Shown here: one piece after another, positions 38,377 to 39,594 of the stretch
Layout of the letters: every line of letters begins with the position of its first letter
Numbering within the stretch: the first letter of the stretch is position 1
DNA from: the human T2T-CHM13v2.0 reference genome, Homo sapiens
Reading direction: 5' to 3' (one strand)
NCBI RefSeq assembly: GCF_009914755.1
Contig: NC_060937.1
Length of the DNA: 64,000 nucleotides
Position numbers and translations under genes: made by a program
Notes under the pieces: model-generated
Told to the model about the DNA's origin: nothing
Databases searched by the model: none
Seen by the model: only the letters and a program-made list of their open reading frames with translations

Positions 38377-39594
38377 ATGCCGGCGGATGGTAGGGATGCC
38401 GACCCTACCGAGAAGCAGGTGGCAGAAACAGAGAGAAACGATGAGGAGCAGTTCGAATGCCAGGAACGGCTCAAGTGCCAGGTGCAGGTGGGGGCCCCCG
38501 AGGAGGAGGAGGAGGAGGAGGACGCGGGCCTGGTGGCCGAGGCCGAGGCCGTGGCTGCCGGCTGGATGCTCGATTTCCTCTGCCTCTCTCTTTGCCGAGC
38601 TTTCCGCGAAGACCGCTCCAAGGACTTCTGCAGGACCCGCAACAGCGCAGAGGCTACTATTCACGGACTATCCAGTCTAACAGCTTACCAGTTGAGAATG
38701 ATATACGTATGTCAGTTTTTGACAAGAATTGCAGCAGGAAAAACCCTTGATGCACAGTTTGAAAATGATGAACGAATTACACCCTTGGAATCAGCCCTGA
38801 TGATTTGGGGTTCAATTGAAAAGGAACATGACAAAGTTCAAGAAGAAATACAGAATTTAATTAAAATTCAGGCTATAGCTGTTTGTATGGAAAATGGCAA
38901 CTTTAAAGAAGCAGAAGAAGTCTTTGAAAGAATATTTGGTGATCCAAATTCTTACATGCCTCTCAAAAGCAAATTGCTTGTGATAATCTCTCAGAAAGAT
39001 ACATTTCATTCCTTTTTTCAACACTTCAGCTACAACCACATGATGGAGAAAATTAAGAGTTATGTGAATTATGTGCTAAGTGAAAAATCATCAACCTTTC
39101 TAATGAAGGCAGCAGCAAAAGTAGTAGAAAGTAAAAGAACAAGAACAATAACTTCTCAAGATAAACCTAATGGTAATTATGTTGAAATGGAAACTGAAGC
39201 TAATTTGGATACAAGAAAAAGGTCTCACAAGAATCTTTTCTTATCTAAGTTGCAACATGGAACCCAGCAACAAGACCTTAATAAGAAAGAAAGAAGAGTA
39301 GGAACTCCTCAAAGTACAAGAAAGAAAAAAGAAAGCAGAAGAGCCACTGAAAGCAGAATAACTGTTTCAAAGAGGCAACCGGTAACTCCTGAAAAACATC
39401 GAGCTAGAAAAAGACAGTCATGGCTTTGGGAAGAAGACAGGAATTTGAGATCTGGCGTGAGGAAATATGGAGAGGGAAACTGGTCTAAAATACTACTGCA
39501 TTATAAATTCAACAACCGGACAAGTGTCATGTTAAAAGACAGATGGAGGACCATGAAGAAACTAAAACTGATTTGCTCAGACAGCGAAGACTGA
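38377..39594 (+). CDS. Uninterrupted 405-aa TRF1/PIN2-like ORF (acidic region, TRFH, Myb/telobox); expression unproven
   Basis: No stop or frameshift; ATG supplied by the TSD with A at -3; Myb motif WLWEEDRNLRSGVRKYGEGNWSKIL...VMLKDRWRTMKKL intact. Confidence 0.5.
   Translation: MPADGRDADPTEKQVAETERNDEEQFECQERLKCQVQVGAPEEEEEEEDAGLVAEAEAVAAGWMLDFLCLSLCRAFREDRSKDFCRTRNSAEATIHGLSSLTAYQLRMIYVCQFLTRIAAGKTLDAQFENDERITPLESALMIWGSIEKEHDKVQEEIQNLIKIQAIAVCMENGNFKEAEEVFERIFGDPNSYMPLKSKLLVIISQKDTFHSFFQHFSYNHMMEKIKSYVNYVLSEKSSTFLMKAAAKVVESKRTRTITSQDKPNGNYVEMETEANLDTRKRSHKNLFLSKLQHGTQQQDLNKKERRVGTPQSTRKKKESRRATESRITVSKRQPVTPEKHRARKRQSWLWEEDRNLRSGVRKYGEGNWSKILLHYKFNNRTSVMLKDRWRTMKKLKLICSDSED

What the first reader, a model, noticed from the sequence alone, without database searches (positions are those of the whole stretch)
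38377..38400. Predicted product lacks the tankyrase-binding motif (RGCADG becomes MPADG)
Established: tankyrase binds TRF1 through the N-terminal RxxADG motif (R13-G18) and PARylates it, releasing it from telomeres; the Arg is essential. Seen: the truncation falls inside this motif and removes the Arg while keeping ADG. Inference: a translated product would be a tankyrase-resistant TRF1 (as mouse TRF1 naturally is). It could stay on telomeres or heterodimerise with TRF1, affecting telomere length and resolution of sister-telomere cohesion.
Basis: partly seen in the sequence, partly recalled or inferred. Interest (0 to 1): 0.7.

Follow-up and report, generated by a model that had tools for sequence, protein, structure and literature searches.

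The report
Telomere-gene retrocopy with a borrowed start
This is a known, likely silent copy of the human telomere gene TERF1 that landed beside a pre-existing start codon, so its open frame would encode a TRF1 protein predicted to escape tankyrase control, but the copy shows no sign of purifying selection and nothing found here shows that the protein is made.

Summary
Window 38377-39594 is an open 405-aa frame that starts MPADG, where parent TERF1 (chr8) has RGCADG; residues 1-15, including Arg13, are missing. It is the annotated processed pseudogene TERF1P5, a copy of the exon-7-skipped mRNA. The Met and Pro codons are not TERF1 sequence. They lie in the target-site duplication and are already present at the empty ancestral site on chr2; an in-frame ATG is expected about 23% of the time. 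The chr18 and chr21 segmental duplicates share the junction; the chr18 frame is open and the chr21 frame is broken. Since insertion, chr13 has taken 21 nonsynonymous and 4 synonymous changes, against 6 and 6 in the parent, so no purifying selection is seen. There is no CpG island or TATA box upstream, and no TERF1P row in the long-read pseudogene tables searched. If translated, the protein would likely behave like the engineered TRF1.AA mutant, because TRFH and Myb key residues are intact. Expression is the missing step (about 6%). Side result: all four long TERF1 insertions start after the parent's ATG, three of them at exactly CDS nt 24.

The parts
38370..38382 (+). 5' target-site duplication (12 bp exact, 38370-38381; 13 bp if the G at 38382 is counted). 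It holds the ATG (38377-38379) and the Pro codon of the predicted product.
   Evidence: Direct repeat with 41200-41211. The uninserted chr2 paralogous site has one copy of the same 12 bp followed by G.
38377..39594 (+). Open frame, 405 aa plus stop: TRF1 residues 16-419 (short isoform) behind Met-Pro. Acidic region, TRFH domain and Myb domain are complete.
   Evidence: It is 379 of 405 residues identical to the parent.
38377..38400 (+). Cut tankyrase-binding motif: positions 2-8 read M-P-A-D-G-R-D, and position 1 (Arg) is absent.
38383..41187 (+). TERF1P5 retrocopy: spliced copy of nine TERF1 exons without the 60-nt alternative exon, from CDS nt 46 through the 3' UTR.
   Evidence: Exon-by-exon match to chr8 with GT-AG introns removed. 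20-aa gap against PDB 8ox1_L. Hub annotation TERF1P5 38383-41190.
39948..40266 (-). Alu-like repeat (family name recalled) in the 3' UTR with its own 15-bp duplication, inherited from the parent mRNA.
   Evidence: D3. The parent's last exon aligns across it without a break (L006).
41188..41199 (+). Short, decayed A-rich tail.
   Evidence: Sequence. The parent continues with different sequence.
41200..41211 (+). 3' target-site duplication.

Best explanation
This is the processed pseudogene TERF1P5, a spliced TERF1 copy starting at Ala16 whose Met and Pro codons come from the flanking target site, and it is likely silent and neutrally decaying, so the predicted tankyrase-resistant TRF1 is likely not made. 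Shown: intronless copy, target-site duplication, ATG present at the empty chr2 site, same junction in the chr18 and chr21 duplicates, 21 nonsynonymous to 4 synonymous changes. Inferred: L1 machinery made the copy in an early ape ancestor, after the ~9%-diverged duplication from chr2 and before the 2-3%-diverged 13/18/21 duplications. Also inferred: the 5' end fell inside the motif because the Arg13-Gly14-Cys15 codons form the 3' arm of a predicted 9-bp mRNA hairpin, or because the template RNA began there. The frame survived by chance.
For: The ATG pre-exists in the uninserted chr2 site, where it opens only a 4-codon frame. The chance of an in-frame ATG before a stop is 0.227. chr13 has 21 N and 4 S changes since insertion (omega about 1.4-2.2 under four mutation models), against 6 N and 6 S in the parent (omega 0.27-0.42); Fisher p=0.049. 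CDS divergence from sister copies exceeds that of flanks and UTR: chr13-chr18 4.21% vs 1.89-3.03%; chr13-chr21 3.81% vs 2.16-2.91%. CpG sites kept: 18 of 23, like broken copies (13-17 of 23) and unlike the parent (23 of 24). The upstream 1 kb is 36% GC with CpG o/e 0.09, and there is no + strand TATAWAWR between 32808 and the ATG. 4 of 6 long copies are broken. 2 of 3 database proteins of this insertion family end inside the Myb domain (gorilla model P0035; unnamed P0030).
Against: 2 of 3 sister copies (chr13, chr18) keep a full 405-aa frame. Chance is 0.007-0.086 for at least 2 of 3, and 0.03-0.30 for at least 2 of 6. A third MPADG-type protein, P0003 (403 aa), is also whole. All 26 functional residues checked are unchanged in chr13 (5 from PMC12635197, 21 recalled). 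The ATG has A at -3. TERF1P5 is listed once as differentially expressed in short-read fibroblast RNA-seq (value 2.195, p=0.029; PMC11025590 passage). The N/S count is small and crude: a broken copy (chrXa) also gave a low omega of 0.36-0.57. No expression data could be analysed directly.
Confidence: 0.85

Rival explanations
1. The chr13 (and chr18) copy is a translated ape-specific retrogene. It would give a TRF1 that dimerises, binds TIN2 and TTAGGG but cannot recruit tankyrase, so it stays on telomeres and delays resolution of sister-telomere cohesion, like the engineered TRF1.AA allele.
For: Open frame in 2 of 3 sister copies. TIN2-pocket residues R102, E106, Q127, R131 and F142 are intact. 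Only 3 differences lie in the Myb region. Adequate start context. Motif mutants accumulate on telomeres without recruiting tankyrase (passages). One short-read expression listing. A same-strand SVA-like element 5.7 kb upstream, absent from the chr21 and chr2 paralogues, could supply transcription.
Against: No purifying selection. The ATG predates the insertion. 111 ATGs and 5 AATAAA hexamers lie between the SVA-like element and the start, two of the hexamers within 17 nt of it. No TERF1P row in 10 of 11 supplements of PMC8108447. The gorilla chr13-type model stops before the end of the Myb recognition helix (DNA not seen).
Confidence: 0.06
2. The locus is transcribed at a low level, by read-through or from the GC-rich first 270 nt, but makes no relevant protein. 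At most the RNA shares 3' UTR regulators with TERF1.
For: TERF1P5 row in one RNA-seq table. TERF1P3 and TERF1P4 reads are reported in iPS cells (PMC3168439 passage). 38383-38656 is still 64% GC with CpG o/e 0.73.
Against: At 96.9% identity to the parent CDS, short reads can cross-map. Absent from the long-read tables searched. A start inside the GC-rich part would lie downstream of the ATG.
Confidence: 0.09

Closest known systems
TERF1P5 (RefSeq pseudogene; hub annotation) and its segmental duplicates on chr18 and chr21
   Same: Same locus (38383-41190), processed copy of TERF1.
   Different: The annotation starts 6 nt after the ATG and gives no coding part. The target-site-derived start and the open 405-aa frame were not found described in the searches.
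Human TRF1, 419-aa isoform lacking the 60-nt exon (name PIN2 recalled)
   Same: TRFH and Myb domains; 379 of 405 residues identical; TIN2-pocket residues kept.
   Different: Lacks residues 1-15 including Arg13. 25 substitutions and one Glu deletion, five of which are ancestral states that the parent has since changed. No parental promoter.
Engineered TRF1.AA, G18P and R13A/G18A alleles; mouse TRF1
   Same: Tankyrase motif disabled with the rest of the protein present (passages).
   Different: Those are expressed and tested. Here Gly18 is kept and Arg13 is lost by truncation, a combination not tested in the passages read, and expression is unshown.
L1-made full-length versus 5'-truncated processed pseudogenes (PMC11702581, section 6 read)
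   Same: 12-13 bp duplication and no junction microhomology match the paper's full-length class.
   Different: The copy starts 45 nt after the parent's ATG. The junction G cannot be assigned to a cap, because the empty site also has G there.

Membership tests
L1-mediated processed pseudogene | Intronless copy of a spliced mRNA | tested here: met
   Nine chr8 exons joined, GT-AG introns absent.
L1-mediated processed pseudogene | Target-site duplication and an empty ancestral site | tested here: met
   38370-38381 = 41200-41211; single copy on chr2.
L1-mediated processed pseudogene | 3' A-rich tail and TT/AAAA-like target | tested here: met
   Tail 41188-41199; target TT/AATA, one mismatch to the motif given in PMC11702581.
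L1-mediated processed pseudogene | Loss of the parental promoter | tested here: met
   Homology starts at CDS nt 46; upstream is 36% GC with CpG o/e 0.09.
L1-mediated processed pseudogene | Frame-disabling lesion (common, not required) | tested here: not met
   No stop or frameshift in chr13 or chr18; present in chr21, chrXa, chr4 and chrXb.
Functional protein-coding retrogene | Intact frame with a start codon | tested here: met
   405 aa.
Functional protein-coding retrogene | Purifying selection (dN/dS below 1) | tested here: not met
   21 N to 4 S, omega about 1.4-2.2; not significantly above 1 either, P=0.09-0.37.
Functional protein-coding retrogene | Frame conserved in orthologues | tested here: inconclusive
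   Of 3 database proteins of this family, 1 is whole and 2 end inside the Myb domain; predicted proteins only, DNA not seen.
Functional protein-coding retrogene | Own capped transcript and translation | not testable with these tools
   No read data. Literature: one short-read listing; none in 10 of 11 long-read supplements.
Canonical tankyrase-binding motif (R1-x-x-x-x-G6, no Pro at 7; PMC10706912) | Arg at position 1 | tested here: not met
   The frame begins at motif position 2.
Canonical tankyrase-binding motif (R1-x-x-x-x-G6, no Pro at 7; PMC10706912) | Gly at position 6 and no Pro at 7 | tested here: met
   A-D-G-R-D kept, so it fits the paper's 'unconventional' class in form only.
TRF1 shelterin subunit | TRFH and Myb domains with interface residues | tested here: met
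   PDB matches E 7e-242 to 1e-29; 26 of 26 checked residues intact, 21 of them from a recalled list.
TRF1 shelterin subunit | Dimerises, binds TIN2 and TTAGGG | not testable with these tools
   Needs bench assays; no structure was predicted.

The most novel reading that the evidence does not exclude
Apes carry a hidden TRF1 paralogue: a retrocopy that captured a start codon from its own insertion site, cut exactly through the tankyrase motif, spread to chr13, 18 and 21, and is translated in some germline or embryonic cell as a natural tankyrase-blind TRF1 that tunes telomere cohesion and length.
Probability: 0.06. Interest if true: 0.7.

Novelty: already known. Interest (0 to 1): 0.18.

Why it matters
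As it stands it is an annotated pseudogene. The practical points are that TERF1 siRNAs, primers and short reads can cross-react with such copies (a TRF1-pseudogene siRNA pool scored through the parent in PMC3121770) and that two copies still hold full frames. If the frame were translated, humans would have a natural equivalent of the TRF1.AA allele, which holds telomere cohesion and is linked to protection from premature senescence (10.1101/2020.02.03.932145, title and passages). That would add an unrecognised shelterin variant. The shared 5' ends of independent TERF1 retrocopies also pose a cheap, testable question about where TERF1 transcription starts in the germline.

Tried and rejected
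1) Idea that the G at 38382 is an untemplated cap G proving a full-length capped template: weakened, because the empty chr2 site has G at that position; it may be the 13th base of the duplication. 2) Idea of gene conversion from the parent, because chr13 shares Pro325 (short-isoform numbering) with human TERF1 while five other copies have Leu: rejected. The gorilla chr13-type model already has Pro, while the gorilla and bonobo parents have Leu, so it is convergent. 3) Positive selection on chr13: P(at least 21 N of 25) = 0.09-0.37, not significant. 4) Upstream in-frame extension that could restore an Arg: none; an in-frame stop lies a few codons upstream, and the only upstream in-frame ATG after 38100 (38311) stops after one codon. 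5) A bacterial promoter scan is irrelevant to a human locus and gave chance-level hits. 7) Seven shorter TERF1-derived loci (L008, L009, L011, L012/L014, L013, L015, L016) and the Alu-type hits were left out of the codon analysis because they do not reach the 5' CDS. 8) Primary papers on the TRF1 pseudogenes (1997), the TNKS1-TRF1 crystal structure, the Myb-DNA structure and Eisemann 2019 could not be read, so the Myb and dimer residue lists are recalled. Whether LOC283523 is this chr13 copy was not established.

Full report
Observation. Window 38377-39594 is an open frame of 405 codons beginning MPADGRDA. It matches human TRF1 in the PDB from residue 16 on, with a 20-aa gap (8ox1_L, E 7e-242). 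The parent gene on chr8 reads RGCADG at residues 13-18. Homology starts at window 38383, the first base of the Ala16 codon.

What it is. The frame maps to nine chr8 exons with the introns removed and without the 60-nt alternative exon. It is followed by the TERF1 3' UTR, a short A-rich tail and a 12-bp direct repeat of 38370-38381 at 41200-41211. This is an L1-type processed copy, annotated as TERF1P5. The ATG lies inside the 5' repeat. A chr2 region that is 91% identical to both flanks lacks the insert and carries the repeat once, followed by G. So the Met and Pro codons are pre-existing genomic DNA; at the empty site they open four codons. From flank trinucleotide counts (73 ATG, 249 stops), an in-frame ATG is met before a stop 23% of the time.

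Relatives. The genome search listed 64 matches. Six TERF1 copies reach the 5' CDS and were analysed; seven shorter ones and the Alu-type hits were left out. chr18 and chr21 carry the same insertion with the same flanks and ATG, at 1.4-3.0% divergence in flanks and UTR. chr18 also has an open 405-aa frame; chr21 has a stop at codon 147 and a 22-nt deletion. Three independent insertions (two on chrX, one on chr4) have other flanks and are all broken. The copy keeps Tyr207 and Asn279, which orangutan and gibbon TRF1 share and which gorilla, bonobo and human have changed. A gorilla model (P0035) shares eight chr13-type residues. The insertion and the chr13 lineage therefore predate the split from gorilla. 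With 4.0% 3' UTR divergence from the parent, an early-ape age is inferred, roughly 15-30 million years (rates recalled).

Is the frame under selection? Against a majority-inferred source sequence, chr13 has 21 nonsynonymous and 4 synonymous changes (5 N on the shared stem, 16 N and 4 S private). The neutral N/S is 2.4-3.7 over four mutation models, which gives omega about 1.4-2.2. The parent shows 6 N and 6 S (omega 0.27-0.42; Fisher p=0.049) and chr18 about 0.65-1.0. The excess in chr13 is not significant (P 0.09-0.37). The method is crude: broken chrXa also scored 0.36-0.57. The CDS diverges faster than the flanks among sister copies. CpG loss (18 of 23 kept) resembles the broken copies (13-17 of 23), not the parent (23 of 24). 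Against this reading: frame survival is 0.37 for stops alone and 0.05-0.18 with frameshifts. The rate seen in these CDSs, about 5 frameshifts per 180 substitutions (by hand), points to the upper value. Two of three sisters staying open has probability 0.007-0.086, and two of six 0.03-0.30. This is the best evidence for function, and it is weak. Of three database proteins of this insertion family, P0003 is whole, P0030 is frameshifted in the Myb domain, and gorilla P0035 ends before the end of the recognition helix (predicted proteins, DNA not seen).

Is it expressed? The upstream kilobase is 36% GC with CpG o/e 0.09. The nearest + strand TATAWAWR upstream is at 32801. An SVA-like element (name recalled from its anatomy) at 31202-32691 lies on the same strand and is absent from the chr21 and chr2 paralogues, but 111 ATGs and 5 AATAAA hexamers lie between it and the start. 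The ATG context has A at -3. In print, 'TERF1P5' was found in 1 paper, as one row of a short-read table (PMC11025590, passage). 'TERF1P' with 'pseudogene' gave 3 papers, 2 listed; one passage mentions TERF1P3 and TERF1P4 (PMC3168439). A TRF1-pseudogene siRNA hit was attributed to knock-down of the parent (PMC3121770, passages). No TERF1P row occurs in 10 of 11 supplements of a long-read pseudogene survey, including its independent-pseudogene table (PMC8108447). Searches (listings only) showed no paper on this frame.

If it were translated. The TIN2-site residues named in PMC12635197 (passages) and 21 recalled dimer, TRFH and Myb residues are all intact. RGCADG is the site through which TRF1 recruits tankyrase. 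G18P, D17A/G18A and R13A/G18A mutants lose tankyrase, and the latter two were shown to stay on telomeres (passages of 10.1101/2020.02.03.932145 and PMC5397190). Mouse TRF1 lacks the motif (PMC9688111, passages). 110 of the 120 listed homologues keep R-G-x-x-D-G. Loss of tankyrase binding is thus likely but not certain. Arg-less motifs are reported (PMC10706912, passages). Positions 3-7 here (PADGR) equal those of the USP25 motif. The unverified RKYGEGNW motif is kept, while RAFRDGRS is lost through G93D. A heterodimer with normal TRF1 would still carry one good motif (inference).

Why the cut falls in the motif. The parent mRNA is predicted to form a 9-bp hairpin over CDS nt 22-45, whose 3' arm is the Arg13-Gly14-Cys15 codons (region z -1.84, 7 of 200 shuffles as stable; second most stable 30-nt window). 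This insertion starts at nt 46, the base after the stem. The other three long insertions all start at nt 24. None of the four includes the parent's ATG or shows junction microhomology, and the base before the homology is G in three and A in one. PMC11702581 (section 6) links an extra G and no microhomology to full-length capped templates. Two readings remain: reverse transcription ends at the hairpin's edges, or germline TERF1 RNAs start inside coding exon 1. I put them near even, since in two of the three G cases the G may belong to the duplication. Either way the position is explained without selection on the protein.

Verdict. Best reading (0.85): a silent, neutrally evolving processed pseudogene with a borrowed start codon. 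Translated tankyrase-blind paralogue: 0.06. Transcribed without relevant protein: 0.09. The locus is already known; interest 0.18.

Noticed in passing
L004, L005, L007/L010 (chrX 73.76 Mb, chr4 139.68 Mb, chrX 82.18 Mb) and window 38383: Three independent TERF1 retrocopies all begin at exactly CDS nt 24, and this one at nt 46; none includes the parent's ATG. Both starts are pyrimidine-G steps and sit at the edges of a predicted hairpin (nt 22-45). This suggests either germline transcription starts inside coding exon 1 (about even odds) or structure-bound reverse-transcription ends. RNAs starting there meet two out-of-frame AUGs before Met28.
   Followed up: partly
L002 (chr18:14538755-14541865, - strand): The chr18 duplicate also keeps an open 405-aa MPADG frame, with a 6-nt in-frame insertion and M419T in the Myb domain.
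   Followed up: yes
window 31202-32691: SVA-like insertion (family recalled from its hexamer, Alu-like, VNTR and poly(A) anatomy) on the + strand with a 16-bp duplication (31186-31201, 32692-32707); absent from the chr21 and chr2 paralogues, chr18 not checked.
   Followed up: partly
L035 (chr2:138.36-138.37 Mb): A region about 91% identical to the window's flanks lacks both the TERF1 copy and the SVA-like element; likely the ancestral source of this pericentromeric duplication.
   Followed up: partly
parent TERF1, chr8:73437924 onward (L031-L034): Human TRF1 differs from the listed bonobo, gorilla, orangutan, gibbon and monkey orthologues at Cys118, Pro325 and Ser414 (short-isoform numbering), so three amino-acid changes appear human-specific; the retrocopies keep the older state at 118 and 414.
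   Followed up: partly
P0018, P0020 (chimpanzee and bonobo 'TRF1-like', 391 aa): Whole frames starting at Met28, close to the modern parent and lacking this family's shared changes; possibly a younger Pan retrocopy that also lacks the tankyrase motif. DNA not seen.
   Followed up: no
window 38383-39594: 10 of the 20 private chr13 substitutions are A>G or T>C; unexplained, small numbers. The Glu repeat is 7 long here, 8 in the parent and 5 in the other five copies.
   Followed up: no
L007 (chrX 82.18 Mb): This copy includes the 60-nt alternative exon and ends at an earlier poly(A) site; the other five long copies derive from the exon-skipped mRNA.
   Followed up: no
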